A DNA stretch of 60,456 bases from Candidatus Peregrinibacteria bacterium. GTDB taxonomy: Bacteria; Patescibacteriota; Gracilibacteria; Peribacterales; Peribacteraceae. The notes beneath the pieces are model-generated. The model saw nothing but the letters and a program-made list of their open reading frames with translations, was not told where the DNA came from and did not search any database. Position numbers and translations under genes: made by a program. Positions 4,869 to 46,831 of the stretch are shown one piece after another (position 1 is the first letter of the stretch; every line of letters begins with the position of its first letter). The stretch covers positions 1-60,456 of the forward strand of contig JACOTD010000078.1 in assembly GCA_016178535.1 (NCBI GenBank), in the 5' to 3' direction.

Positions 4869-5010
4869 TGGTTTGTTTGCTGTTTCTGTTTCCTCTCCCC
4901 CCGACCCCCTCTCCGATGGAGAGGGGGCGAAATGTTCCATTGTGCGAATTCTCCCCTCCTCCCTCGGAGGAGGGGCAGGGGGTGGAGGAAAACAACAAAC
5001 AACCCCAACA
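4869..5010. repeat. G/C-hairpin MITE-like element, family A, copy A1 (3' of gyrA)
   Basis: The termini gtttgtttgctgtttctgttt ... aaaacaacaaacaacc are inverted. Two perfect 10-bp hairpins are present: ccccctctcc-gat-ggagaggggg (4905-4927) and cccctcctcc-ctc-ggaggagggg (4953-4975), followed by gggggtggagg. It is homologous to 20813-20965 and related to 16606-16885 and 56076-56120. Confidence 0.8.
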
Positions 5011-7096: not shown

Positions 7097-7262
7097 AAAT
7101 GGAAAATGGATAATTGACCCCTCGACACGGCTCAGGATCACTCGCAGATTATTTGCATCACGAACATGTGTCACACTGAGCGAGGTCGAAGTGTGACAAT
7201 TATGGCAGGAATTCTCGTATCTGTATCGCTTCCAACATTATCCATTTTCAATTTTCATACTA
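7097..7262. repeat. Composite REP-like element, family B, copy B2
   Basis: Order of parts: aaatggaaaatggataattgac, then cccctcgacacggctcaggatcac (7118-7141), a 28-nt spacer, then gtcacactgagcgaggtcgaagtgtgac (7170-7197), aattatggcagg, and finally ccattttcaattttca words. The architecture matches 13396-13552 and, inverted, 15809-15985. Confidence 0.75.
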
Positions 7263-13395: not shown

Positions 13396-13552
13396 GGAAC
13401 AATGGAAAATTGACCCTTCGACACGGCTCAGGGTCACTTGGAGATAACTTTCATAGCTGGATTAGGGGTCATACTGAGCGAAGTCGAAGTGTGAAAATTA
13501 TGGAAGCGATTTAAGACTTGGCACTTCCTTCTCCATTTTCAATTATCAATTT
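13396..13552. repeat. Composite REP-like element, family B, copy B3 (glyA 5' region)
   Basis: ggaaaattgac, then cccttcgacacggctcagggtcac (13414-13437), a 30-nt spacer, then gtcatactgagcgaagtcgaagtgtga (13468-13494), aaattatggaagcg, and finally ccattttcaattatcaattttcaattgtcaattttt words. Confidence 0.75.
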
Positions 13553-20812: not shown

Positions 20813-20965
20813 GTGTTTGTTGTTTGTGTTTTCCTCTATCCCCCATCCCCTTTCTCCGGGGGAGAAAGGGGGGGCCTCAACAATTTGTGTTTTTGGAAAT
20901 TCTCCCCTCCTCCATCGGAGGAGGGGTCGGGGGTGGAGGTTGGACAAAAAATACAAAACAAACAT
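20813..20965. repeat. G/C-hairpin MITE-like element, family A, copy A3 (3' of dcd)
   Basis: gtgtttgttgtttgtgtttt ... aaaatacaaaacaaaca termini. Hairpin 1 is cccctttctc-cgggg-gagaaagggg (20846-20870). Hairpin 2 is cccctcctcc-atc-ggaggagggg (20903-20925), followed by tcgggggtggagg. It is collinear with A1. Confidence 0.8.
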
Positions 20966-21840: not shown

Positions 21841-21917
21841 GGACGATTAGCTCAGTTGGTTAGAGCGTGCGACTCACATTCGCAAGGTCACTGGTTCGAA
21901 CCCAGTATCGTCCACCA
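21841..21917 (+). tRNA. tRNA-Val (anticodon CAC), CCA encoded
   Basis: Manual cloverleaf: acceptor GGACGAT/ATCGTCC, D arm GCTC-AGTTGGTTA-GAGC, anticodon arm TGCGA-CTCACAT-TCGCA, variable loop AGGTC, T arm ACTGG-TTCGAAC-CCAGT, then discriminator A plus CCA. Confidence 0.9.
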
Positions 21918-22188
21918 TTCTGGATGTTCGTCATTCGCAAGGTCTCAGCCCAGGCTGATCGAACCCAGTATCGTCCACCATTCTGGATGTTCGTCATTCG
22001 CAAGGTCTCAGCCCAGGCTGATCGAACCCAGTATCGTCCACCATTCTGGATGTTCGTCATTCGCAAGGTCTCAGCCCAGGCTGATCGAACCCAGCCAGGC
22101 TGATCGAACCCAGTATCGTCCACCATTCTGGATGTTCGTCATTCGCAAGGTCTCAGCCCAGGCTGATCGAACCCAGTATCGTCCACCA
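21918..22188 (+). repeat. Tandem array of four 63-nt units, each a degenerate copy of the tRNA-Val 3' half
   Basis: The unit ttctggatgttcgtcattcgcaaggtctcagcccaggctgatcgaacccagtatcgtccacca occurs at 21918-21980, 21981-22043, 22044-22125 (with a 19-nt internal duplication, ccaggctgatcgaacccag) and 22126-22188. cattcgcaaggtc and cgaacccagtatcgtccacca are identical to tRNA positions 21877-21889 and 21897-21917. Confidence 0.9.
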
Positions 22189-22282
22189 TTCGACCGCCTG
22201 AGGCGGACTCATGGCAAGCCATTTGATTTGAATTTGTCCTCAGAACACAGTGCAGAATACATTGACGTACCCCGTGCCCGCT

Positions 22283-37046: not shown

Positions 37047-38345
37047 ATGCCGATTTCTCCGTACGCGTCCACACTCAACGATATCCTCAATGCGGAGCAT
37101 CCTTCATTGCTTGCGGCTCTCTCGAAGCGAGGGAAATCGATCTACTTTCCGCATGCGGGAATTCTCGGACAAACCGCGGAGGCGAAAGGGAAATCCATCA
37201 ACGCAACAATCGGCATCGCGGTGGGAGATGACGGAGCGCCGCTCCACCTCTCCTCGATCGCGAACACGATCGCGCTCCCGCCCGCATCGATCTTTCCGTA
37301 CGCTCCTGGCTTCGGTCTCGCAGCACTCCGGTCGGCATGGTTCGCAGAGCTTGTGCGGAAAAATCCATCGCTGTTCGCGTCGAGCTTCACGTTGCCTGTT
37401 GTGACGGGCGGTCTCACGCACTCCCTCAGCATCGCCGGCTACCTCTTCACCGACGAAGGCGATGACATCATCGTGCCGGAGCCGCACTGGGACAATTACG
37501 GCCTCCTCTATGAGCAGACGTACGGCGCAACACTCTCGACATTTCCCTTGTTCGCGAAGGATGGCTTCAACCTCGATGGATTGCGAGAGCATCTTCGATC
37601 CCATTCAGGAAAGCAGATCCTCCTCCTCAATTTCCCCAACAACCCGACCGGGTATTCTCCGCTTCGGTTCGAGGCCGACGACATCGTCATGATCCTCCGT
37701 GAGAGTGCCGAGGCAGGCAACACGGTCATCGTTCTCCTCGATGACGCGTACTTCGGCCTCGTGCACGACGAGGACGTCTATCCCGAGTCATTGTTCTCTC
37801 TGCTCGCGAATCTCCACGAGCGGATCATCGCCGTGAAGATCGATGGGTGCTCGAAGGAAGACTACGCGTGGGGGCTCCGAGTCGGGTTCCTCACGTACGG
37901 CATGAAAGGCCTCACGAAGGACGTCGTTCGCGTGCTCGAGGACAAAACCGCCGGCGCCGTACGCGCGACGGTCTCGAATGCCTGTCACCTCTCGCAGTCG
38001 CTCTTGCTCGCTTCCCTTCGCGACCCTTCCTCCGCGCGGGATCGAACGCATCATGCCGATCTTTTGCGCAGACGGTACAAGAAATTGAAGAGTCTTCTCG
38101 AGGAATCGTCTCCCAACTTCCGTCTCCTTCCCTGTAACTCCGGGTACTTCCTATGTGTGGAACTCGCGGACGGCATCGATGTCGATCGCGTCCGTCGCCT
38201 CCTTCTCGACGAGTACGGAACCGGCGTGATTGCGCTCGGCTCGCTCATCCGGATTGCCTTCTCCTCCGTTCCCGAATCGAACATGGAACAACTCGTCCGC
38301 AACATTCGCGAAGCATGTTCGCGCGCATCCTCCTTCGCCTCTTGA
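37047..38345 (+). CDS. Class I/II PLP-dependent aminotransferase (aspartate-aminotransferase-like)
   Basis: 432 aa: NATIGIA..DDG..., LLLNFPNNPTGYSP, VLLDDAYFGLV, and KIDGCSKEDYAWGLRVGFL (PLP-Lys region SK). Confidence 0.8.
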   Translation: MPISPYASTLNDILNAEHPSLLAALSKRGKSIYFPHAGILGQTAEAKGKSINATIGIAVGDDGAPLHLSSIANTIALPPASIFPYAPGFGLAALRSAWFAELVRKNPSLFASSFTLPVVTGGLTHSLSIAGYLFTDEGDDIIVPEPHWDNYGLLYEQTYGATLSTFPLFAKDGFNLDGLREHLRSHSGKQILLLNFPNNPTGYSPLRFEADDIVMILRESAEAGNTVIVLLDDAYFGLVHDEDVYPESLFSLLANLHERIIAVKIDGCSKEDYAWGLRVGFLTYGMKGLTKDVVRVLEDKTAGAVRATVSNACHLSQSLLLASLRDPSSARDRTHHADLLRRRYKKLKSLLEESSPNFRLLPCNSGYFLCVELADGIDVDRVRRLLLDEYGTGVIALGSLIRIAFSSVPESNMEQLVRNIREACSRASSFAS

Positions 38346-39991
38346 TGATGTCACCTCTCACACTGCGTCGGTTGGAGTCGAACACCCGCCTCATCGCGAA
38401 TCCGTCGCGCCAGACGATGATCGACGATGTGATGAACGCCCGTGAAGCGATTGTCACAAAAACGGGAGCGCTCGCCGCATGGTTCCCCTCAACCGACACC
38501 GGTCGCATCCCCAAAGACACGTACATCGTGAAGCACGGACCGAGCGTCGAAGCCGTCGACTGGACATCTCCGAATGCGCATCCGATGACGCCGGAGATGT
38601 TCGATTGTCTGTTCGATCAAGCACTGGAGATTCTCTCTGCCAAGCGGAAACTCTACGTCCTCGACCGCAGCGTTGGGGCGCAGGAGCAGTACGCGTTGCC
38701 GCTGAAAGTGATGACGGACAGTCCGCTGACGTCGCTCTTCGCCGACACGATGTTTCGGCCATGCTTCGACAGGGCTCAGCATGACAGTTCCAAGAGCGTC
38801 TTCGCCGATCAACCGTTCACGCTCCTCGTGCTTCCGCACGATCCTCTTCGCACGGAAAACTTCGAAGGAGAACTCCGTATCGAGCATGGAGCCATCGTTC
38901 CTCGTGTCGTCGCGATGGACATGGAGCGGCGAATGGGGATCGTGCTGGGGACGAAGTACCTCGGCGCCGTCAAGAAAACGCTCTTCACCGCGATGAATCA
39001 TCTCTTGCCCGATCACGGCGTGCTTCCGCTCCACTGCTCTGCGGTCTCGGACAACTGCGGGGAGACCCATCTCTTCCTCGGGCTCTCGGGGACGGGCAAG
39101 ACGACGCTTTCGACCGCAGCGAATCTCTCGCTCATCGGCGATGACGAGCATCTGTGGTCGAGTGACGGCATCGCGAACATCGAGAACGGCTGCTACGCCA
39201 AGCTCATCCGCTTGAGCACAGAGAAGGAGCCGCAGATTTACGAAGCGGCCTTCGGATCACGCTCGAATGTCACCAATGGCGTCATCATCGAGAATACGAT
39301 GGTCTACCCCGATGGCAGCGTCGACTTGGACGACGATCGTCTTACAGAAAACTCCCGCGCGGCCTACCCGCTCTCGTTCCTCGAGAACACCGTTCCTTCC
39401 GCAACCGGAAGCCATCCGCAAACGATCCTCTTCCTCACCGCCGATGCCGAAGGAGTCCTTCCGCCCATCAGCAAACTGACGCTCCATCAGGCGCTGCTGT
39501 GGTTCCTCATGGGCTACACGAGCAAGCTCGCGGGAACCGAGACGGGCGTGATCGAACCGCAGCCGAACTTCTCCCGCTTCTTCGGCGCGCCGTTCATGCT
39601 CAGGAGACCGCACGACTATCTCGATCTCTTCCAGAAGTTCGTCACCGCGCATGGAAGCGATATCTATTTGGTCAATACTGGGTGGGCGGGAGGCCCGTAC
39701 GGAGTCGGGAAGAGGATGGATATTTCTCTGACGCGCTCGCTCGTCACCTCCGCTCTCACGGGCGCGCTCGAGAGCGTTCCGTACCGTGAAGACCGCCGCT
39801 TCCATCTCTTCGTCCCGGAGAGTTGTCCGGGCATCGATCCGATGCTCCTGAATCCAGAACGTCAGTGGAGCGATCGTGATGCATACGCCAGGAGGGCCGA
39901 CGCGCTCGCGGCAAAATTCGCGGCGACCTTCGAGAAGAATTTCGGCGGAACCGTCGCGGAAGAAATCGCGAGGGAATGTCCTGGGAGATAA
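38345..39991 (+). CDS. pckA: Phosphoenolpyruvate carboxykinase (ATP)
   Basis: The kinase-1a P-loop is FLGLSGTGKTTLS, followed by LIGDDEHLWS, and the ATP-type PEPCK C-terminal NTGWAGGPYGVGKRM. The ATG at 38345 overlaps the aminotransferase stop (TGATG). Confidence 0.92.
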   Translation: MMSPLTLRRLESNTRLIANPSRQTMIDDVMNAREAIVTKTGALAAWFPSTDTGRIPKDTYIVKHGPSVEAVDWTSPNAHPMTPEMFDCLFDQALEILSAKRKLYVLDRSVGAQEQYALPLKVMTDSPLTSLFADTMFRPCFDRAQHDSSKSVFADQPFTLLVLPHDPLRTENFEGELRIEHGAIVPRVVAMDMERRMGIVLGTKYLGAVKKTLFTAMNHLLPDHGVLPLHCSAVSDNCGETHLFLGLSGTGKTTLSTAANLSLIGDDEHLWSSDGIANIENGCYAKLIRLSTEKEPQIYEAAFGSRSNVTNGVIIENTMVYPDGSVDLDDDRLTENSRAAYPLSFLENTVPSATGSHPQTILFLTADAEGVLPPISKLTLHQALLWFLMGYTSKLAGTETGVIEPQPNFSRFFGAPFMLRRPHDYLDLFQKFVTAHGSDIYLVNTGWAGGPYGVGKRMDISLTRSLVTSALTGALESVPYREDRRFHLFVPESCPGIDPMLLNPERQWSDRDAYARRADALAAKFAATFEKNFGGTVAEEIARECPGR

Positions 39992-40039
39992 ACGATGCTT
40001 GCTGCTTTCAAAATGCGTCAATATCCCTACAATTGACCT

Positions 40040-41539
40040 ATGCGCGATATTTTCGATCACGAACGGCTCAGTCCTGCCGTTTCTGGATTGTTGCCAAGCA
40101 TGAATCCTTGGTGGGAAGGAAAGCCAGCCAAGCCGCAACCGCCCTTTCATCGATGGGCGTTTTCCATCACGAAGAAGAAACTCGATTCCGACCTCGCGCC
40201 GATCGTTGTGATACGCGGACCGAGGCAGGTGGGGAAAACCACCCTTCAAATGCAGCTCATCGAACACTACATCAAGGACAGAGGCATCGATCCTTCGCGC
40301 ATACTTCGTGTGCAATTCGACGACCTTCCCTCGTTGAGAGAATTGGCAGATCCCATACTGTCCATTGGTCGTTGGTTTGAAAGTCGCGTGTTGAAGCGAA
40401 CATTCAATCAGGCCGCCACAGACGGACAGCCAGCTTTCCTGTTCTTCGATGAAATACAGAACATCGCCGATTGGGCGATTCAGCTTAAATCTCTTGTCGA
40501 TACTCATCGCGTAAAAGTTCTGGTTACCGGCAGTTCGGCGCTACGAATGACCGCTGGAAAGGACAGCTTGGCAGGTCGCATTGCACAAGTGGATCTCGGC
40601 ACGTTGCTTCTGCGGGAAATCGCCGGCATTCGCTACGGGGAAACCATTGAGCCGCACTTGCCCCATAATGGACTTGATCCTTTACTCCTTCCAGATTTCT
40701 GGCGATCGTTGCAGCAGTATGGACTCAAGAATCGGGAAATCCGCGACCGCGCCTTCAGTGCTTTTTCGGCGAGAGGAGGCTATCCCATCGCTCATGTTCG
40801 CGAAGAGACACCATGGCCGGAAATCGCCGAGCAACTCAATGAGAACGTCGTGAAGCGCGCCATTCAGCACGATCTTCGGATCGGGGAGCGCGGCAAACGG
40901 AGAAACCAGGGGCTGCTCGAGGAGGTTTTCCTGCTCGCCTCCCGATACGTCGGCCAATCGCCCGGGCAGGCCGTATTCGTTCAGGAGGTGCGCAGCGCGC
41001 TTCGAGCAAGTGTGAGCTGGGACAAAATCCGGAATTATCTGAAATTCCTGGATTCCGCTCTTCTCTTGAAGCTCATCGAACCCTTGGAGCTTCGACTGAA
41101 GAAGAAAAAGGGGAATTATAAACTCTGCATCTGCGATCACGGGCTCCGAGCCAGCTGGCTGCGCGAAGTGGTTCCCCTCGATCCCGTCGCATTGCAACGC
41201 CTGAGTCATCTGAGCGATCTCGCGGGACATATTGCAGAGAGCGTCGTGGGGTATTTTCTCGCGGGTTTGCCCAACATGAGTATCAACCATTTCCCCGAAC
41301 GAGACATTGAGCCGGAAATCGACTTTATCCTCACCGTCGGCGCGCATCGCATTCCCGTCGAAGTGAAGTATCGGCAACGCATCGATCCCCACAGAGACAC
41401 CTTGGGGCTGCGGGCCTTTCTCGAGAAGACCGTGTACAACGCTCCGTTCGGCATTCTTGTGACCCTCGATGATACCATTGAAATTCCCGATGCTCGGATC
41501 ATCCCCATCTCCTTGCGGTCATTGTTGCTTCTGCGTTGA
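40040..41539 (+). CDS. COG1373-type AAA+ ATPase (AAA_14 plus a DUF4143-like C-terminal domain)
   Basis: NPWWEGKP...IVVIRGPRQVGKTTLQMQLI (Walker A) and AFLFFDEIQNIADW (Walker B). The C-terminal region with IAESVVGYFL...EIDFILT...IPVEVKY is typical of DUF4143 PD-(D/E)xK-like ends. Confidence 0.8.
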   Translation: MRDIFDHERLSPAVSGLLPSMNPWWEGKPAKPQPPFHRWAFSITKKKLDSDLAPIVVIRGPRQVGKTTLQMQLIEHYIKDRGIDPSRILRVQFDDLPSLRELADPILSIGRWFESRVLKRTFNQAATDGQPAFLFFDEIQNIADWAIQLKSLVDTHRVKVLVTGSSALRMTAGKDSLAGRIAQVDLGTLLLREIAGIRYGETIEPHLPHNGLDPLLLPDFWRSLQQYGLKNREIRDRAFSAFSARGGYPIAHVREETPWPEIAEQLNENVVKRAIQHDLRIGERGKRRNQGLLEEVFLLASRYVGQSPGQAVFVQEVRSALRASVSWDKIRNYLKFLDSALLLKLIEPLELRLKKKKGNYKLCICDHGLRASWLREVVPLDPVALQRLSHLSDLAGHIAESVVGYFLAGLPNMSINHFPERDIEPEIDFILTVGAHRIPVEVKYRQRIDPHRDTLGLRAFLEKTVYNAPFGILVTLDDTIEIPDARIIPISLRSLLLLR

Positions 41540-41560
41540 AATTCAGCCTAGCTTCTCTCG

Positions 41561-41637
41561 AAATCCGCGGCGACCTTCGAGAAGAATTTCGGCGGAACCG
41601 TCGCGGAAGAAATCGCGAGGGAATGTCTGGGGAGGTA
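41561..41637 (+). repeat. Relic second copy of the pckA 3' end (~77 nt)
   Basis: aaatccgcggcgaccttcgagaagaatttcggcggaaccgtcgcggaagaaatcgcgagggaatgtctggggaggtag is near-identical to pckA 39914-39991 (aaattcgcggcgaccttcgagaag...gagggaatgtcctgggagataa). Confidence 0.9.
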
Positions 41638-41648
41638 GGAGATCAACT

Positions 41649-44048
41649 TTACCTTTGAGGATTGGAATTGCTATCCACAGACATACGTCGTTCTTCCGTG
41701 GGATACAATTTTTTCAGCACCAATCCCCATGCCTGATGTTGTCGTTCGGATTGGGATGCCACTCGGATTTGTTCAAGGCGTGAACGCAATTCATTCACAA
41801 GTCTGCGCACGTAAGTGTCTCCGCATTCCACCGTATCAAGCCATCGCCAGGCAATTTCACCGGACAGAATTTTTCTCATGTCTGGCATGGTTACTTCCCA
41901 TGGCTGTTTGCCAAGTTTTCCTGCAACGCCTTCGATGTCGGTACGGAAATCTGCAATTGCCTGAGGATCATCCAATAGAGATTCTTCTGAACGAATCACA
42001 CCTGTTCTATGGGTACTTCTCTGTTCTTCGATAAGGGTGCGTATCGCGCGTTCGAATTGCTCTTCGCTTTCCCAGTGGAGACGCCTGCAATTGAACATCG
42101 TACGCATATTCTTGCTATTCACTCTTCCTACGTATTCGTCAGTTCCTCTTGGTTGTCGCGTGAAGAACGCTGCCATGTACGAGTCATCGTTGAGAATGAA
42201 TTGCAGGGAAAGCTGAGGCAGAGTCACCACGATGTGGTGCCCGTGATGAATGGTAGAATAATCGCGTTGCTGCGTATCAGTTGTATCTGCTCCATCCGTG
42301 TCCCACGCGAATTCTGCGCTTTCACGCTGCTGCAGCAGTACTTTGTGAAGACAGGCAAGTCGAGGCATTGATGTTCTCCTTCCCCCAGGTGTTCCTTCTT
42401 GTGCGTGATCGCTACCATCGCCATCCACCGCATCTGTTTGTCGTTCTCGCGAAAGATATATTCCCTCAACATCATTCGAGTGCAGCAGCCGAGACTCCAG
42501 TGTCCGTAAAGAAGGTACACTCATTGCCGACCACTGATCTTTATCAGCTGCGTTGATGCCCGCGATGAGAAATGTCGCGCTAATGTTGTTCGAGTCTTCA
42601 TCAACGGCGCCGGGCAATTGTGGTTTAGTCGTCGAACCTGGATACAGAATATGGACGAAATCTTGAAATTCGACGAATATGCATGAACGAAGCAACTCCT
42701 CTTGCTCCTTCCATTGAGGACAAAGTATTTCGAGCATTCTCTGCATACGACCTGCAAGTCGCGGCAAATTCTCCTTGATCGCAATTGTTTTCTCCAGAAT
42801 TGGAGATGGAAAGGAGAGAGGCGGAATCCAATTTTTATTGCCTGTCATTTGAACATCATCTGGGGATGCAGTGATACCATTTCCGTTATCTGATCTTATA
42901 AGCGACAAAGTACGTTCTTTCGTCTCAGAGAAGCGGACTCCATTGTCACTATCCTTCCAACCATAAGTACCAATGAGATGAGGCAGATTTCTTTTGGCTC
43001 GAATTGACGGCAGATACCCATGGGGAAATCTTGAAAGTATTCCATGTGCAATCTCTACGTTTGCGCATTCTTGTTCAAAATTGTTGAAAGTATCACGTAC
43101 AGCGCCAATTGCATTGCCATAATGCGATGACGATTGCCCAAATTGATGCATTTCTCCATCATTGAGCGGGTCTTTCGCGTGCTTGGGCCGCCGCATTTCC
43201 CAATTTTGATTTTGCGTTTGCAAAAGACGGCGAAACGCTGCTTGTTTCTCTGCGGGGGGAATTGGAAGTTTGCCAAATGCATGGCGCAACATCGATGTCA
43301 AAAATACTACCGAAAAAATTCTTGGATCAATAGTACCAGGTTCAATGATGTCAATGATTTTCTCCATGCATCGAATGCTTATGGCAATAAGCGCCGTGAG
43401 AAATTCTTCTGGAGACAAACTCGGCATTACCGTTCCAATTTCCATTGCGATTGACTCACTGATTTCCTTAGTAAGATCATGCAGTGTTGCCCGTGTTATC
43501 CCTACGCCCATTCGCACACTCTCTCCATTTTCCGTTGTTGTTACCCTTATTCCTTGATAGATCTGATTGATGGTCTCGCATCGTATTGCTATTGCTGGGT
43601 CCAGAACATCCATGATCGGAGCAATTCTCAATCGATCATTCATGAGCTGAGTCTTGGTATCGTCGCGCAATTTTTGAAGACTGATTCTTTCAGTATGATC
43701 ATCCATCATCAAATTTGCTACCATGAGCGGGTAGAGAGCCTTTTCTCTCAGTCTTTCCGAGGATTCTACGGATCTGGTTGGAACAGTTGGATCATCAGTT
43801 GTCTCTGAATCATTTGATATCGCAACTTGTGGGTTCAGCACATTACCAACTTCATGCCGTGCGGTTAAGCGCTCCCGCTCCAATCGTTGACCCAATTCCT
43901 CTTCAATTGCTCGCAGCAAAGTCTCTTCGTCGGGAGCCAGCGTCTTGCCTTTACGAACACGCCGAGGATCATCTCGTTTGCCTTCCAGTTGTTCTTTTTT
44001 ACGTCGCAATAAAGTTGTCTCTGACGAGGCTATTTGGTCTAGTTTCAT
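41649..44048 (-). CDS. Hypothetical protein, 799 aa, AT-richer foreign composition, no recognisable domain
   Basis: Clean 2.4-kb ORF with an ATG at 44048. Codon usage is visibly A/T3-rich, unlike the flanking genes. No TM or signal peptide is present. The N-terminus is charged and coiled-coil-like (KKEQLEGKRDDPRRVRKGK...EEELGQRLERERL). Confidence 0.7.
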   Translation of the reverse strand: MKLDQIASSETTLLRRKKEQLEGKRDDPRRVRKGKTLAPDEETLLRAIEEELGQRLERERLTARHEVGNVLNPQVAISNDSETTDDPTVPTRSVESSERLREKALYPLMVANLMMDDHTERISLQKLRDDTKTQLMNDRLRIAPIMDVLDPAIAIRCETINQIYQGIRVTTTENGESVRMGVGITRATLHDLTKEISESIAMEIGTVMPSLSPEEFLTALIAISIRCMEKIIDIIEPGTIDPRIFSVVFLTSMLRHAFGKLPIPPAEKQAAFRRLLQTQNQNWEMRRPKHAKDPLNDGEMHQFGQSSSHYGNAIGAVRDTFNNFEQECANVEIAHGILSRFPHGYLPSIRAKRNLPHLIGTYGWKDSDNGVRFSETKERTLSLIRSDNGNGITASPDDVQMTGNKNWIPPLSFPSPILEKTIAIKENLPRLAGRMQRMLEILCPQWKEQEELLRSCIFVEFQDFVHILYPGSTTKPQLPGAVDEDSNNISATFLIAGINAADKDQWSAMSVPSLRTLESRLLHSNDVEGIYLSRERQTDAVDGDGSDHAQEGTPGGRRTSMPRLACLHKVLLQQRESAEFAWDTDGADTTDTQQRDYSTIHHGHHIVVTLPQLSLQFILNDDSYMAAFFTRQPRGTDEYVGRVNSKNMRTMFNCRRLHWESEEQFERAIRTLIEEQRSTHRTGVIRSEESLLDDPQAIADFRTDIEGVAGKLGKQPWEVTMPDMRKILSGEIAWRWLDTVECGDTYVRRLVNELRSRLEQIRVASQSERQHQAWGLVLKKLYPTEERRMSVDSNSNPQR

Positions 44049-44054
44049 ATTGAT

Positions 44055-44083
44055 ATATTAATCTATAAATTCTTTAGAGTCAA
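44055..44083 (-). promoter_or_regulatory. Sigma-70-like promoter for the 799-aa gene (candidate leaderless transcript)
   Basis: On the minus strand: TTGACT (44083-44078), a 17-nt spacer, TAATAT (44060-44055), then atcaat and the ATG at 44048. No Shine-Dalgarno sequence fits in the 6 nt between. Confidence 0.4.
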
Positions 44084-44116
44084 CAAAGGCTTTTTGCCTT
44101 CCTTAAGCACTCTTTA

Positions 44117-44236
44117 ACCCCGGCACCTTCTGCTTCAGAAGCTCCACGACGGCGTCCAAATCTTCATTCACCATGATGTGATCGAAGAGATCCTTTCGCT
44201 CGGAAAAGAAGTCGAGGTCTTTCTCCCATTCTTCTG
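44117..44236 (-). repeat. Relic second copy (~120 nt) of the 3' end of the DUF35-GK gene
   Basis: aaccccggcaccttctgcttcagaagctccacgacggcgtccaaatcttcattcaccatgatgtgatcgaagagatcctttcgctcggaaaagaagtcgaggtctttctcccattcttc versus 44770-44890. About eight differences were counted by eye, including a 1-nt gap. Confidence 0.9.
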
Positions 44237-44325
44237 GACGAGTTTTTTGCGGGTTCCTGATTGACATGCACTAAAAGCTTGCATAGAATTGTCTCATTAG
44301 TGGCTTCGGCCTCCGAGGACTCCGC

Positions 44326-44730
44326 TCACGCGGGGTCCGATTTTATATACGAGGCGATGCATGCACGAACGGAAGTGAATTCTTTGGTGGAGATCATGCC
44401 GATTTTTCGAAGGAGCCGTTTACTGCTGATCGTTCGGAGTTGCGACAAGCAAGCGAATGAAACTCCCCGATCATGAGCAATCCGATGATAGTGCTTGCCG
44501 AATCGTTTCTTCGATGTGAGTGGGATAACCCACAGCATGTATCCGTTGAATTTTTTCACAATGAGAACGGGGCGCTCAAAGTGATCGTTCTTCCCGTCAC
44601 TCTCCACTCCCACATTGATCCCAATTGAGCACCACCACACTTCTCGTTCATGAAAAAATACCGTCCGCTTGTCTTCCTGGGCGTCGAGCTTCTTTTTCAT
44701 GCTGTTCCATTGATCGAAGAGTTTTTGCAT
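44326..44730 (-). CDS. PemK/MazF-like toxin, solitary (no adjacent antitoxin ORF)
   Basis: 134 aa: WNSMKKKLDAQEDKRTVFFHEREVWWCSIGINVGVESDGKNDHFERPVLIVKKFNGYMLWVIPLTSKK. This matches the long-form PemK/MazF pattern (..WW...G.N.G.E.dGk...f.RPvlI..kf). It is AT-richer than the host genes. Confidence 0.7.
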   Translation of the reverse strand: MQKLFDQWNSMKKKLDAQEDKRTVFFHEREVWWCSIGINVGVESDGKNDHFERPVLIVKKFNGYMLWVIPLTSKKRFGKHYHRIAHDRGVSFACLSQLRTISSKRLLRKIGMISTKEFTSVRACIASYIKSDPA

Positions 44731-44757
44731 ATCGGCTCACGGCATGAATCTTCAGTG

Positions 44758-45711
44758 TCACGCCCCCCTCAATCCCGGCACCTTCTGCTTCAGAAGCTCC
44801 ACGACGGCGTCCACGTCTTCATTCACCATGATGTGATCGAAGAGGTCTTTGCGCTCGGAAAAGAAGTCGAGGTCCTTCTCCGCATTCTTCAGGCGGTCGG
44901 CGATGTGCTCTTCGGTGTCGCGGCCTCTTGTTCGGAGTCTGTGCAATAAATGACTCAGCATCGCCCGCTTGCTGTTGCCGGGCGGGAGGAGGCCGCAGGA
45001 GAGGATGGAGCGGCGGCCGTACTGTTCGGCGAGGCCTTGGAGCAAGTGCATCTCGGTGATGACGACGGGAATTTTCCCCGCCTTCCAAATGCGCTCGATG
45101 TCCTGCGCGCGGTAGCCGTACAGACGGTCTTCGGATGAGGAAGGGATCTGCGTGCTCGCGATGATCTCGCCTCGGCTCTGGAGTTCAGCGAAGGTTTTCT
45201 TGGCAATGTAGCGATACTCGCCGTCGTCTCCCGCTTTCTTCCTGCGCGTCGTGTGGATCGGCACGTTCTCGAGGTAGCTGGAACACATCTGAACGAGGAG
45301 GCGGCTGATGGTGGATTTTCCCACGCCCGAGGGGCCAGTCAGTGCAAGAATGTATCCAGGGAAGTTCGGCACTTCCTTCGAAACGGGCAGACGTTGTTTC
45401 GTTGTCTCGTTGTGTTGTTGCTTGTCTTGCGATGCAGGTTCGAATGCGACGTCATACATTCGGAGCTTCTCTCCATTGATTCGAGAAAGTCTCATGCGGG
45501 GGAGAACGGCGTCACCAATCGAACAGGGGGCCGTGAGAGGCGCGAGAACGTTGGAGCCGTCTTCGAGCGCGATGAGGGCGATGCGCCGCGGGAATTTCCC
45601 AAAGGCTGCAGGCGGATGCAGGAGGGTCGTCACGGAGACGACGGTGCCGGGCTGCATCTTGCTCCCGCGCTGCTTGAGCGCACGGTGAAGGGAAGGCGAC
45701 GTGTCAGTCAT
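44758..45711 (-). CDS. Fusion protein: DUF35-type OB-fold domain (thiolase/HMG-CoA-synthase partner) plus a guanylate-kinase-like P-loop domain
   Basis: The N-terminal part GTVVSVTTLLHPPAAFGKFPRRIALIALEDGSNVLAPLTAPCSIGDAVLPRMRL fits the DUF35 OB fold, and no Zn-ribbon Cys pairs are present. The C-terminal part LTGPSGVGKSTISRLL...IHTTRRKKAGDDGEYRYI...LYGY...NEDVD fits a guanylate-kinase-like fold. The ATG at 45711 overlaps the thiolase stop by 8 nt. Confidence 0.75.
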   Translation of the reverse strand: MTDTSPSLHRALKQRGSKMQPGTVVSVTTLLHPPAAFGKFPRRIALIALEDGSNVLAPLTAPCSIGDAVLPRMRLSRINGEKLRMYDVAFEPASQDKQQHNETTKQRLPVSKEVPNFPGYILALTGPSGVGKSTISRLLVQMCSSYLENVPIHTTRRKKAGDDGEYRYIAKKTFAELQSRGEIIASTQIPSSSEDRLYGYRAQDIERIWKAGKIPVVITEMHLLQGLAEQYGRRSILSCGLLPPGNSKRAMLSHLLHRLRTRGRDTEEHIADRLKNAEKDLDFFSERKDLFDHIMVNEDVDAVVELLKQKVPGLRGA

Positions 45712-46831
45712 GCATGCGTTCGAGGATATGTATACCACAGCTCGCGCACGCGCCGCCGAAATTATGCGCCATTCCCCACCTCTCTTCGCGCTCTGTCAAC
45801 TGCTTCGCGAGGTCGTTCAGCTGCTTGATGCCGGTGGCGGCGACGGGGTGTCCGCAGCCTTTGAGTCCACCGCTCGCGTTGATGGCGAAGCGCGTCTTCT
45901 TCCCTTCGTACAAATCCTTGTAGAGCGAAATTCCCTCGCCCGGGTTCGCAAAGCCCAGATCTTCCAGGTTGATGAGAGCGGCGATGGAGAAGCAGTCGTG
46001 GGTCTCGAGGCACGAGAGATCGTCGAGCGTGATGTCGGCTTCTTTCAGCGCTCTCCCACAGGCATCCCTCGACGCCGGGAAGCTCGTGATGGACGGACGC
46101 TTCGTGATGCTGACGGCATCGGAGGCGATGCTCGAGGCGGCGAGACGGAATTCGCTCTCGTGATTGGTCGAGAGGATGCAGGCGGCGCCGCCGTCGCTGA
46201 TGGGGGAGCAATCGAGGAGGCGGAGCGGATCGGCCACGAGCGGGCTTTTGGAAACCGCTTCCGGCGTGATGACGTTTCGAAACTGCGCGAAGAGATTCCC
46301 TTTCGCATTCCTGTGATGTACGGCGGAGACGAGGCTCAGCTCTTCCCGCGTGAGGCCGTGCTCGTGCATGTAGCGCGCGGCGATGAGTCCGAAGATACCG
46401 GGGAACGTGAGGCCCGATGGACGATCTTCTTCGCTGTCCGCTGCAACCATCAGCCCCGCGGCGATGGCATCGACGGAGACGTCGGTCATTTTCTCCGCTC
46501 CGACGACGAGCACCGTCTTCGCTCTGCCGCTCTCGAGGAACGCGCACGCCGTGTGAAGGGCGTACGCCCCCGACCCGCAGGCGGATTCCACCCGGATGGC
46601 GGGCGGGCGGTGAGGGAGCAAGGCCGAAACGAGCGAGCCGAGGTGCGCTTGGCTGCTCGTCACTTCTCCGAGCATATTGCTCACGATGATGGCATCAATC
46701 TCCAGAGCCGTGATGCGCGAGGAATCGATGGCCGCCGTCACGGCTTCCTCAATGAGATCCATCAAACTTTTGTCCCATCGCTCGCCGAAGCGGGTTTGGC
46801 CTTGGCCGATGAGGGAGATGGAAGTGTTCAA
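45704..46831 (-). CDS. Archaeal-type acetyl-CoA C-acetyltransferase (thiolase)
   Basis: 375 aa: VESACGSGAYALHTA (nucleophile Cys), ...ETHDCFSIAAL, GGLKGCGHPVAATG, and NFGGACAS. This is the short thiolase form that pairs with HMG-CoA synthase and DUF35. Confidence 0.88.
   Translation of the reverse strand: MNTSISLIGQGQTRFGERWDKSLMDLIEEAVTAAIDSSRITALEIDAIIVSNMLGEVTSSQAHLGSLVSALLPHRPPAIRVESACGSGAYALHTACAFLESGRAKTVLVVGAEKMTDVSVDAIAAGLMVAADSEEDRPSGLTFPGIFGLIAARYMHEHGLTREELSLVSAVHHRNAKGNLFAQFRNVITPEAVSKSPLVADPLRLLDCSPISDGGAACILSTNHESEFRLAASSIASDAVSITKRPSITSFPASRDACGRALKEADITLDDLSCLETHDCFSIAALINLEDLGFANPGEGISLYKDLYEGKKTRFAINASGGLKGCGHPVAATGIKQLNDLAKQLTEREERWGMAHNFGGACASCGIHILERMHD

What the first reader, a model, noticed from the sequence alone, without database searches (positions are those of the whole stretch)
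39992..44757. AT-richer 4.8-kb accessory island between pckA and the mevalonate operon: AAA ATPase, 799-aa orphan, solitary MazF-like toxin
pckA (+) and the DUF35-GK gene (-) converge on a segment whose base composition drops visibly. Long A/T3-rich codon runs in 41649-44048 and 44326-44730 contrast with GC3-rich flanks.

The segment carries three genes. One is a COG1373/DUF4143-type AAA+ ATPase. One is a 799-aa protein with no motif I can place. One is a long-form PemK/MazF toxin with no antitoxin ORF next to it.

Both outer cassettes are bracketed by duplicated termini of the flanking housekeeping genes (reported separately), so the island was assembled by at least two or three separate insertions.

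An NTPase, a large unknown and a toxin sitting together in a compositionally foreign hotspot is what uncharacterised anti-phage or addiction systems look like. This is my best candidate for an undescribed system, although the three genes are not one operon (orientations are +, -, -).
Basis: partly seen in the sequence, partly recalled or inferred. Interest (0 to 1): 0.75.

Follow-up and report, generated by a model that had tools for sequence, protein, structure and literature searches.

The report
Variable gene-insertion hotspot in a Peregrinibacteria genome
Between two housekeeping genes of an uncultured Peregrinibacteria bacterium lies a real, AT-richer 4.8-kb hotspot where three unrelated single genes were inserted separately; it is not one new three-gene system.

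Summary
Positions 39992-44757 are the lowest-GC stretch of the contig (0.492 against 0.583, z -6.5). The gene calls are correct, and both outer genes are bracketed by duplicated 3' ends of pckA (77 nt, 95%) and of the DUF35-guanylate-kinase gene (120 nt, 91%).

A sister genome keeps both flanking genes but carries entirely different cargo, separated by three copies of the same pckA terminal core. The site is therefore a strain-variable insertion hotspot.

The three genes are independent modules:
- The ATPase (AAA_14 + DUF4143) is an ordinary member of PADLOC candidate PDC-S01. Thousands of 62-70% identical relatives occur across phyla.
- The MazF is a long-form PemK toxin that keeps the conserved RP-motif arginine. 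Its plasmid and prophage relatives also have no annotated antitoxin.
- The 799-aa protein is not a true orphan. It belongs to a small family whose named members all come from Peregrinibacteria. Its N-terminal half is hypervariable. Its roughly 390-aa C-terminal domain models confidently but matches no known fold.

The repeat-flanked cassettes most resemble decayed integrative elements (CIME-like) that lack an integrase. The one-system reading is not supported. Interest is moderate.

The parts
38315..39991 (+). pckA (ATP-dependent PEP carboxykinase), left core flank. The start is approximate.
   Evidence: Pfam PEPCK_ATP 9.7e-147. Homology to sister genome L002 runs up to its stop codon and then ends.
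39914..39990 (+). pckA 3'-terminal repeat, copy 1 (in frame; the functional end of pckA; attL-like)
   Evidence: 77-nt direct repeat, 95% identical to 41561-41637. A 36-nt core is invariant in five copies across two genomes.
40040..41539 (+). AAA_14 + DUF4143 ATPase fused to a PD-(D/E)xK-type domain; PADLOC candidate PDC-S01. Cargo of a 1647-bp cassette.
   Evidence: Pfam. PADLOC PDC-S01 1.2e-33. 3285 homologues at E<1e-20, the best 62-70% identical; the named ones come from Planctomycetota, Omnitrophica and Pseudomonadota MAGs. Walker A (GPRQVGKT), Walker B (FFDE) and D...EVK motifs are read directly from the translation.
41561..41637 (+). pckA 3'-terminal repeat, copy 2 (displaced, no longer attached to a gene; attR-like)
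   Evidence: It carries 4 copy-specific substitutions against 1 in the functional copy. The junction is confirmed by Logan unitigs.
41649..44048 (-). 799-aa protein. The N-terminal half (1-~400) is unique. The C-terminal ~390 aa is a conserved domain of a family whose named members are all Peregrinibacteria.
   Evidence: No hit in any profile library. 24 distant relatives match residues ~406-790 only. All six named clusters are Peregrinibacteria or Peribacter(ales). AF2 model of residues 400-799: pLDDT 80.6, pTM 0.78. No Foldseek match in PDB or BFVD better than E = 0.2. GC3 is 0.414.
44107..44226 (-). Displaced copy of the 3' end of the DUF35-guanylate-kinase gene. It lies inside a 54-aa ORF (44103-44267) that is most likely a by-product.
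   Evidence: 120-nt direct repeat, 91% identical to 44762-44881. It carries 10 copy-specific substitutions, mostly towards A/T, against 3 in the functional copy.
44261..44346 (+). Candidate small antisense transcription unit: promoter-like site TTGACA-17-TAGAAT, then a terminator hairpin overlapping the mazF stop codon. This is a lead only.
   Evidence: 11 of 12 promoter match, and the strongest terminator-like site of the region. The hairpin is -22 kcal/mol, z -2.95, and more stable on the + strand. No Rfam match. A similar antisense terminator occurs at the mazF end in Campylobacter prophage CJIE4-3 but is weak or absent elsewhere.
44326..44730 (-). Long-form PemK/MazF endoribonuclease toxin with no adjacent antitoxin gene. 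Cargo of a 655-bp cassette.
   Evidence: Pfam PemK_toxin 1.9e-11 and phrog_9567 1e-18. In an alignment with E. coli MazF and B. subtilis EndoA sequences that I entered from memory, R53 aligns with the arginine of their RP motif, which from memory is the catalytic Arg29/Arg25. The T of PLTSK falls within the aligned segment that holds Thr52/Thr48, one column off the Thr52 position as I count it. No nearby ORF could encode an antitoxin.
44758..45738 (-). DUF35(OB)-guanylate-kinase-like gene, last gene of the mevalonate operon; right core flank. Its last 120 nt (44762-44881) are the functional repeat copy.
   Evidence: Pfam. 83% identical orthologue in L002. Homology to L002 ends at its stop codon.

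Best explanation
The segment is a strain-variable insertion hotspot between two convergent core genes, pckA and the last gene of the mevalonate operon, in a Peregrinibacteria (CPR) chromosome. It holds three independent single-gene modules rather than one system.

Two modules are small cassettes, each flanked by direct repeats that copy the 3' end of the adjacent core gene:
- a 1.65-kb cassette carrying the PDC-S01-type ATPase-nuclease;
- a 0.66-kb cassette carrying the long-form MazF.

This is the footprint expected when a small circular DNA carrying a copy of the target gene's end integrates by a single crossover (Campbell type). The gene keeps an intact end, and a second copy is left on the far side of the insert. 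No recombinase is present, so the cassettes are best read as decayed, cis-mobilizable-type integrative elements (CIME-like). They would have been inserted by an integrase acting in trans or since lost.

The middle gene (799 aa) fills the space between the two displaced gene ends. It belongs to a family whose named members are all Peregrinibacteria and whose function is unknown. It was probably acquired from an AT-richer member of the same phylum.

Likely roles (inferred, not shown):
- ATPase: a stand-alone NTP-dependent nuclease of the defence-candidate class.
- MazF: an mRNA interferase, possibly read through from the mevalonate operon and possibly checked by a cis-antisense RNA.
- 799-aa protein: a conflict- or host-interaction-type protein, with a variable N-terminal module on a conserved C-terminal scaffold.

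The confidence of 0.6 is for the whole statement. The hotspot with independent modules I hold at about 0.85, and integration by a site-specific recombinase at about 0.5.
For: Hotspot:
- The composition minimum of the contig falls exactly on the segment.
- Sister genome L002 is 84-88% identical in the flanks. Its homology stops at the two stop codons, and the interval holds unrelated genes: a 56-aa DUF5678 protein, a 230-aa ORF and a 301-aa ORF.

Serial insertion:
- The window has two copies and L002 three copies of one invariant 36-nt pckA-terminal core, each separating single-gene units of 0.33-1.65 kb.
- The kinase-gene end is duplicated around mazF.
- The displaced copies carry most of the substitutions.
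- Independent assemblies confirm the junctions.

Independence of the genes:
- Their GC3 values differ: 0.62, 0.41 and 0.58.
- They do not co-occur in any relative's context.

ATPase: PDC-S01 hit; described as an ATPase fused to a PD-(D/E)xK domain, common and not yet validated (PMC12988326); a huge cross-phylum family.

799-aa family:
- Found only by exhaustive search; every named member is from Peregrinibacteria.
- In all eight loci examined, the family gene's GC3 lies below that of nearly all neighbouring genes.
- The N-terminal halves are unrelated between subfamilies.

Known precedent: CIMEs and microCIMEs stacked at the 3' ends of fda, rpsI, rpmG and rplL in streptococci (PMC7563491).
Against: - No integrase or any other mobility gene lies in the island. 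A crude motif scan of the 60-kb contig found none either.
- No intact element carrying the same att sequence was found. The pckA and kinase cores are absent from the viral contig collection.
- The cassettes are smaller than classical cargo-carrying CIMEs (1.2-13 kb).
- Crossover by the host's own homologous recombination would leave the same footprint.
- The 799-aa gene has no flanking repeats of its own, so how it arrived is not shown.
- Its low GC3 could have causes other than recent transfer.
- Nothing is known experimentally about the activity of any of the three proteins.
Confidence: 0.6

Rival explanations
1. One cooperative, undescribed defence or addiction system made of the ATPase, the 799-aa protein and MazF.
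For: The three genes lie next to each other in a compositionally foreign hotspot. The ATPase matches a defence candidate. MazF lacks its own antitoxin gene, so a non-canonical partner is conceivable.
Against: - Each outer gene has its own pair of flanking repeats.
- Orientations are +, -, - and the GC3 values differ.
- None of eight contexts of the 799-aa family holds an AAA_14 or PemK gene.
- The closest ATPase relative and the MazF relatives occur without the others.
- The sister genome has none of the three genes at this site.
Confidence: 0.04
2. The hotspot and the independent cassettes are as described, but the duplicated gene ends were made by the host's homologous recombination (a single crossover of circularised DNA from related strains sharing 36-120 nt of the gene end), not by a site-specific integrase.
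For: No integrase was found. The repeat length varies from 36 to 77 to 120 nt, as expected if homology rather than a fixed att site sets the limits. The repeats have no special secondary structure.
Against: - The same 36-nt terminal core, ending at the stop codon, is reused five times in two genomes.
- Two repeat variants occur in the same order in both genomes, which points to a defined site.
- Homology of 36 nt is short for efficient RecA crossover (my own knowledge).
- No donor strain with the cassette next to pckA is known.
Confidence: 0.25
3. The 799-aa gene is not foreign. It is a vertically inherited, fast-evolving signature gene of Peregrinibacteria, and only the two flanking cassettes are insertions.
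For: All named family members are Peregrinibacteria. In marine Peribacter the gene sits in a stable context on many contigs. It has no flanking repeats or mobility genes.
Against: - It is absent from the syntenic site of a sister genome with 84-88% identical flanks.
- Its GC3 of 0.41 against 0.75 is far from the host's equilibrium. The same deficit is seen in three other GC-rich hosts.
- Its genomic context differs in all eight loci.
Confidence: 0.2
4. Assembly artefact: a chimeric join of strain variants at a shared repeat.
For: The contig comes from a metagenome-assembled genome, and the repeats are 91-95% identical, as strain variants might be.
Against: - Unitigs from two sequencing runs match the contig at 100% across all four repeat/cassette junctions, including truncated copies joined to non-pckA sequence.
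- A different species' contig shows the same kind of array.
Confidence: 0.03

Closest known systems
CIMEs and microCIMEs: decayed, cis-mobilizable integrative elements stacked at the 3' ends of fda, rpsI, rpmG and rplL in streptococci (PMC7563491)
   Same: They insert at the 3' end of a housekeeping gene, which stays intact. Direct repeats of the gene end flank each unit. Tandem arrays of two or three units occur. They carry no integrase or transfer genes. Their cargo is adaptive or toxin genes, and their presence varies between strains.
   Different: - The host here is a CPR bacterium, where no parental ICE/IME is known for these sites.
- The units are single genes of 0.33-1.65 kb, between microCIMEs (130-220 bp, no gene) and classical CIMEs (1.2-13 kb).
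- The repeats are longer (36-120 nt).
- Two convergent genes both serve as targets.
Chromosomal integration hotspots or defence islets between conserved core genes (as described for E. coli and Pseudomonas pan-genomes; my own knowledge)
   Same: Fixed core-gene flanks, AT-richer variable cargo, defence-type genes and toxins, and different content in close relatives.
   Different: It is very small (4.8 kb, three genes). Only one of the three genes matches a catalogued defence candidate. Only two genomes could be compared.
PADLOC PDC-S01 (AAA_14 + DUF4143, COG1373-type ATPase fused to a PD-(D/E)xK domain)
   Same: Full-length domain architecture, an HMM match at 1e-33, intact Walker A/B and D...ExK motifs, and a single-gene stand-alone arrangement.
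   Different: Nothing notable. The family itself has no experimentally shown anti-phage activity (PMC12988326).
Type II mazEF/pemIK toxin-antitoxin modules
   Same: The PemK/MazF fold family. The RP-motif arginine is conserved, and a Thr/Ser lies in the PLTSK segment that aligns with the catalytic-Thr region.
   Different: There is no upstream antitoxin gene. The protein has a 25-aa basic N-terminal extension (FDxWNxxKKKL) and an insertion before the RP motif. Its relatives on Campylobacter prophages and on Helicobacter and Nitratiruptor plasmids likewise have no annotated antitoxin.
Integron cassette arrays / CALINs
   Same: Arrays of single-gene units separated by a repeated sequence, with content that is swapped between relatives.
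   Different: The repeats are copies of a coding gene end and do not fold as attC hairpins. The genes point in both directions. No intI gene is present.

Membership tests
PADLOC PDC-S01 / COG1373 ATPase | N-terminal AAA_14 P-loop domain with Walker A and B motifs | tested here: met
   Pfam AAA_14 1.4e-26, residues 54-194. GPRQVGKT and FFDE are read from the translation.
PADLOC PDC-S01 / COG1373 ATPase | C-terminal DUF4143 (PD-(D/E)xK-type) domain | tested here: met
   Pfam DUF4143 4.7e-13, residues 283-445. An EIDF...EVK motif is present.
PADLOC PDC-S01 / COG1373 ATPase | Match to the PDC-S01 profile HMMs | tested here: met
   Seven PDC-S01 models hit, the best at 1.2e-33.
PADLOC PDC-S01 / COG1373 ATPase | Protection against phage | not testable with these tools
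   Validation is pending for the family as a whole (PMC12988326).
Type II MazEF/PemIK module | PemK/MazF toxin domain | tested here: met
   Pfam PF02452 1.9e-11, above the curated cut-off. phrog_9567 1e-18.
Type II MazEF/PemIK module | Catalytic Arg and Thr of MazF retained | tested here: inconclusive
   The reference sequences of E. coli MazF and B. subtilis EndoA were entered from memory, and the catalytic-residue numbering is also from memory. R53 aligns with the arginine of their RP motif. A Thr/Ser is present in the PLTSK segment opposite the reference segment that holds Thr52/Thr48, but the T of PLTSK is offset by one column from the Thr52 position as I count it (A6). No PDB sequence match was available for a checked alignment.
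Type II MazEF/PemIK module | Adjacent, co-transcribed protein antitoxin gene | tested here: not met
   The gap to the upstream kinase gene is 27 bp. The only downstream ORF is the 54-aa relic of the kinase gene end.
CIME-like decayed integrative element | Unit flanked by direct repeats (attL/attR) derived from the 3' end of the target gene, which stays intact | tested here: met
   77-nt and 120-nt repeats, with the functional copies in frame.
CIME-like decayed integrative element | No integrase, relaxase or transfer genes inside the unit | tested here: met
   Each cassette holds a single gene with no mobility domain.
CIME-like decayed integrative element | Variable presence and tandem accretion at the same site in relatives | tested here: met
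   L002 has three copies of the pckA core separating different single-gene units.
CIME-like decayed integrative element | Derivation from, or mobilisation by, an ICE/IME or other element with an integrase specific for the same att site | tested here: inconclusive
   None was found in the contig or in viral contigs.
Integron / CALIN | attC sites that fold into imperfect hairpins; cassettes in one orientation; intI nearby | tested here: not met
   The repeats fold no better than shuffles (z between -1.5 and +0.1). Gene orientations are mixed. No integrase was found.
Any described protein family, for the 799-aa protein | Significant match to a curated profile or to a solved or predicted structure | tested here: not met
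   Pfam, NCBIfam, PHROGs and PADLOC gave nothing, for the protein itself and for its relatives. The PDB profile search gave nothing better than E = 0.33. Foldseek against PDB and BFVD gave nothing better than E = 0.2 with a model of pLDDT 80.6.

The most novel reading that the evidence does not exclude
Two linked readings remain open.

(a) The arrays of single-gene units separated by copies of the last 36+ nt of pckA occur in two Peregrinibacteria species, with the repeat variants in the same order but the cargo swapped. They could be a dedicated cassette-capture platform of CPR bacteria. It would be functionally like an integron, but would use the end of a housekeeping gene as its recombination site and an unidentified recombinase.

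(b) The 799-aa family could be a new class of conflict protein (defence or host interaction) that moves horizontally within the phylum. Its named members are all Peregrinibacteria, its GC3 lies below that of nearly all neighbouring genes, its N-terminal half is hypervariable, and its C-terminal domain has no known fold.

A smaller side reading is that the long-form MazF is held in check by a roughly 50-nt cis-antisense RNA rather than by a protein antitoxin.
Probability: 0.12. Interest if true: 0.8.

Novelty: new member of a known kind. Interest (0 to 1): 0.42.

Why it matters
CPR bacteria have tiny genomes, and how they gain and exchange genes is poorly documented. This locus gives a clean, junction-level example of serial single-gene insertion at the ends of two core genes, with a sister genome for comparison.

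It also flags a protein family of 650-1600 aa, all of whose named members are Peregrinibacteria. Its C-terminal domain models confidently yet matches nothing known, which makes it a reasonable target for structural or functional work.

The practical lesson for scans of this kind is that an NTPase, a large unknown protein and a toxin lying side by side need not be a system. Repeat boundaries and co-occurrence in relatives settle the question.

Tried and rejected
- A word-indexed search with the 799-aa protein, and with a profile of its C-terminal domain, found only the protein itself plus one relative. Only the exhaustive search worked.
- The single-sequence AF2 model of the full protein was useless (pLDDT 38).
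- The search for related loci with the broad domain alignment failed because no stretch was conserved enough. A subfamily alignment gave one short metagenome locus and no viral locus.
- I tested whether L002's 301-aa or 230-aa ORFs are diverged relatives of the 799-aa protein. They are not.
- I looked for inverted or direct repeats around family genes and around the ATPase relative in other genomes. None were found. This argues against the 799-aa gene being a self-mobile element, as do its single copy and its lack of near-identical copies.
- I tested an attC-like hairpin reading of the repeats and rejected it.
- A target-site-duplication reading was considered. Repeats of 77-120 nt are far longer than transposase target duplications (my own knowledge). 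The substitution tally cannot distinguish decay of a duplicated copy from import of a foreign copy.
- An integrase motif scan of the contig gave two ORF hits, neither with any integrase or recombinase domain in Pfam. The ORF on the opposite strand of one of them is a GHMP-kinase gene of the mevalonate operon.
- Rfam found nothing in the island.
- A conserved antisense terminator at the mazF 3' end is strong in two of nine loci and weak or absent in the rest. It is kept only as a lead.
Full report
SOURCE. The window is a complete 60,456-bp contig of a metagenome-assembled Candidatus Peregrinibacteria (CPR) genome. The 799-aa ORF is recorded in NCBI as hypothetical protein HY285_04885.

OBSERVATION: COMPOSITION. 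The composition drop is real and localised. With 1-kb windows, GC falls from 0.58-0.60 to 0.45-0.51 between 41 and 45 kb. The interval 39992-44757 has GC 0.492 against 0.583 for the rest of the contig. The lowest-GC 4,766-nt window of the whole contig is 40001-44766 (z = -6.5 against all non-overlapping windows). Third-position GC is 0.72-0.78 in the flanking genes (aminotransferase, pckA, DUF35-kinase, thiolase, HMG-CoA synthase). It is 0.618 in the ATPase, 0.414 in the 799-aa ORF and 0.578 in mazF.

OBSERVATION: GENE CALLS.
- pckA matches PEPCK_ATP at 1e-146.
- 40040-41539(+) carries AAA_14 and DUF4143.
- 41649-44048(-), 799 aa, has no match in any profile library.
- 44326-44730(-) matches PemK/MazF.
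- 44758-45738(-) is a guanylate-kinase-like P-loop protein with a weak DUF35-type OB-fold match.
- Downstream lie thiolase, HMG-CoA synthase, HMG-CoA reductase, a mevalonate-diphosphate-decarboxylase-like gene, a GHMP kinase and a polyprenyl synthase.

OBSERVATION: DUPLICATED TERMINI. The duplicated gene ends exist. 39914-39990 and 41561-41637 are 77 nt at 95% identity (the pckA end). 44107-44226 and 44762-44881 are 120 nt at 91% identity (the kinase-gene end).

OBSERVATION: ASSEMBLY. Logan unitigs from two sequencing runs match 39951-41595 and 41598-44148 at 100%. They span all four repeat/cassette junctions, so the arrangement is not an artefact of the MAG assembly.

THE SITE IS A VARIABLE HOTSPOT. 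A related Peregrinibacteria contig from groundwater (L002, JACQCJ010000041) has an 83% identical kinase protein and flanks 84-88% identical in DNA. It has the same convergent pckA and mevalonate-operon arrangement. BLASTN shows that homology runs up to the two stop codons and then ends. The 2.1-kb interval in L002 shares nothing with the 4.8-kb interval here except short pckA-terminal repeats. L002's interval is also AT-richer. It holds three different units:
- a 56-aa DUF5678 gene (Pfam 7.9e-6);
- a 230-aa ORF;
- a 301-aa ORF.

The two larger ORFs have no Pfam, PADLOC or PHROG match, and neither is related to the 799-aa protein. A more distant relative (L003, kinase 55% identical) has no pckA nearby and no duplicated kinase-gene end.

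THE REPEATS. Five copies of the pckA end (two here, three in L002) share an invariant core of about 36 nt, GAAGAAATCGCGAGGGAATGTCC.GGGG, which runs into the stop codon. Each copy separates single-gene units of 0.33, 0.87 and 1.65 kb. The mazF unit, bounded by the kinase-gene repeats, is 0.66 kb.

Two repeat variants (ending ...GGGAGATAA and ...GGGAGGTRR) occur in the same order in both genomes with different cargo between them. L002 has one further insertion next to pckA. The displaced copies carry most of the substitutions: 10 against 3 for the kinase end, and 4 against 1 for the pckA end. This fits either neutral decay or a foreign origin and does not distinguish between them.

The repeats do not fold better than shuffled sequence, so they are not attC-like. 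There is no integrase or other mobility gene in the island, and a crude motif scan of the contig found none. Neither core occurs in the viral contig collection.

The pattern is this: insertion exactly at the 3' end of a conserved gene, that gene left intact, direct repeats of its end flanking each unit, tandem stacking, and no recombination genes. This is what has been described for cis-mobilizable elements (CIMEs and microCIMEs) at the 3' ends of fda, rpsI, rpmG and rplL in streptococci (PMC7563491). I take that as the closest known kind. A single crossover by the host's own homologous recombination would leave the same footprint and remains a serious rival.

THE ATPASE. It matches seven PADLOC PDC-S01 models, the best at 1.2e-33. 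It has intact Walker A (GPRQVGKT) and Walker B (FFDE) motifs, and a D...EVK motif in the DUF4143 part (read).

A recent survey describes PDC-S01 as an ATPase fused to a PD-(D/E)xK-superfamily domain. It ranks PDC-S01 as the fourth most common defence candidate in prokaryotes and notes that most such candidates still lack experimental validation (PMC12988326).

The protein has 3,285 homologues at E<1e-20. The best are 62-70% identical over the full length, and the named ones are MAGs of Planctomycetota, Omnitrophica and Pseudomonadota. This indicates a widely exchanged single gene. The closest relative also stands alone between housekeeping genes, without flanking repeats. No PDB sequence relative was found. 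This part of the finding is an ordinary member of a catalogued family.

THE MAZF. It is a long-form PemK toxin. I aligned it with E. coli MazF and B. subtilis EndoA, entering both sequences from memory. R53 lines up with the arginine of their RP motif, which from memory is the catalytic Arg29/Arg25. The T of PLTSK falls in the aligned segment that holds Thr52/Thr48, offset by one column from the Thr52 position as I count it, so this point is only suggestive. The protein also has a 25-aa basic N-terminal extension (FDxWNxxKKKL) that it shares with its closest relatives.

Those relatives are in several places, in each case without an annotated antitoxin:
- Campylobacter prophages of the CJIE4 type, between the terminase and portal genes;
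- Nitratiruptor, Helicobacter and Campylobacter plasmids;
- Lactobacillaceae plasmids, where in two cases the gene follows a DUF3800 gene.

Here the gene starts 27 bp after the kinase stop codon. The only nearby ORF is the 54-aa relic of the duplicated kinase-gene end. Solitary toxins are a known phenomenon (for example PMC3141249, listed).

One lead concerns the + strand just downstream of mazF. It carries a near-consensus promoter-like site (TTGACA-17-TAGAAT, 11 of 12). About 30 nt further on lies the strongest terminator-like hairpin of the region, which overlaps the mazF stop codon. The hairpin is -22 kcal/mol, z -2.95, and more stable on the + strand. This would give a roughly 50-nt RNA antisense to the mazF 3' end.

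Support for this lead is limited. A comparable antisense terminator sits at the mazF end in prophage CJIE4-3, but the feature is weak or absent in seven other loci. Promoter-like sites are not enriched in the region, and Rfam has no match. I keep it as a hypothesis at about 25%.

THE 799-AA PROTEIN: FAMILY. Word-indexed search finds only the protein itself. Exhaustive phmmer against 1.84 billion cluster representatives finds 24 relatives (E from 2e-46 to 5e-4). All of them match only residues ~406-790. The relatives are 434-1,620 aa long and have no significant Pfam, PADLOC or PHROG match.

Conserved motifs of the C-terminal domain include PRL..LR..LL, GHYVVVT.P....Q.L.SDD, W.S.EQF and SG...W.FGG.A.G..YLDRLA. 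Few polar residues are invariant. The N-terminal halves are alike only within subfamilies, and the N-terminal half here matches none. Some larger members duplicate the first sub-domain.

THE 799-AA PROTEIN: STRUCTURE. With a 19-sequence alignment, AlphaFold2 models residues 400-799 at pLDDT 80.6 and pTM 0.78. Foldseek finds nothing better than E = 0.2 in PDB or BFVD. A profile search of PDB sequences finds nothing better than E = 0.33.

THE 799-AA PROTEIN: DISTRIBUTION AND CONTEXT. Every cluster that carries an organism name is Candidatus Peregrinibacteria, Peribacteria, Peribacterales or Peribacter. The eight genomic contexts share no neighbour and contain no mobility, AAA_14 or PemK genes:
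- inside an ATP-synthase operon;
- in glycosyltransferase clusters;
- next to rlmH;
- after ndk;
- after methyltransferase genes.

In every locus the family gene's GC3 lies below that of nearly all its neighbours. In GC-rich hosts the gap is large: 0.41 against 0.75 here, 0.57 against 0.88, 0.565 against 0.85, and 0.55 against ~0.73. In AT-rich hosts it is small or absent, and in L018 one neighbour is slightly lower. The gene is also absent from the syntenic site of the sister genome. Together these points favour repeated transfer within the phylum from AT-richer donors over vertical descent. The latter is not excluded (I put it at about 0.2).

The gene is single-copy in its 90% cluster and has no terminal repeats here or elsewhere. 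I therefore reject a self-mobile element. Function remains unknown. The architecture (variable N-terminal module, conserved C-terminal scaffold), the restriction to one phylum and the location in hotspots are what conflict-related proteins look like, but that is inference only.

ONE SYSTEM OR THREE MODULES. Several lines argue against a single three-gene system:
- The boundaries are separate.
- The genes point in mixed directions.
- The three GC3 values differ.
- The sister genome has none of the three genes at this site.
- There is no co-occurrence in any relative's context.

I put the single-system reading at about 0.04.

VERDICT. Its headline hope of an undescribed system is not supported. 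What remains of interest is:
- a junction-level example of serial, repeat-flanked single-gene insertion at the ends of two core genes in a CPR genome, mirrored in a sister species;
- a protein family, all of whose named members are Peregrinibacteria, with a confidently modelled domain of unknown fold;
- a weak lead for an antisense RNA partner of a solitary MazF.

Overall this is a new member of a known kind (integration hotspot with CIME-like cassettes), and interest is moderate.

Noticed in passing
window 21841-22191: tRNA-Val(CAC) is followed by a perfect tandem array of 63-nt units (one unit is 82 nt). Each unit repeats the last 22 nt of the tRNA (TCGAACCCAGTATCGTCCACCA), and the copies are 100% identical. 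This could be serial att-like duplication of a tRNA 3' end, or an assembly artefact.
   Followed up: partly
window 7105-7213 and 13401-13511: An intergenic sequence of about 110 nt, containing a hairpin (GTCACACTGAGCGAGGTCGAAGTGTGAC), is repeated 6.3 kb apart at 85-86% identity. It has no Rfam match at gathering threshold.
   Followed up: no
window 44758-45738; L002 4930-5868; L003 9953-10939: A DUF35-type OB-fold fused to a guanylate-kinase-like P-loop kinase closes the mevalonate operon. The fusion is conserved in two other Patescibacteria genomes (83% and 55% identity). It may be a non-canonical kinase of the pathway.
   Followed up: no
L013 10001-12514: The closest relative of the 799-aa protein (33% identical) sits in the middle of an F-type ATP-synthase operon, between atpC and atpI/atpB. 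Its GC3 is 0.57 against about 0.88 for its neighbours.
   Followed up: partly
L029 1-1056; L030 1-1017: On two Lactobacillaceae plasmids the long-form MazF gene directly follows a DUF3800-domain gene, which is a possible conserved pair.
   Followed up: no
L002 7719-8007: The cassette next to pckA in the sister genome is only about 290 bp long between the repeats and encodes a single 56-aa DUF5678 protein.
   Followed up: yes
window 4940-4988 and 20891-20939: A 49-nt GC-rich palindromic sequence, terminator-like, is repeated 16 kb apart at 88% identity.
   Followed up: no
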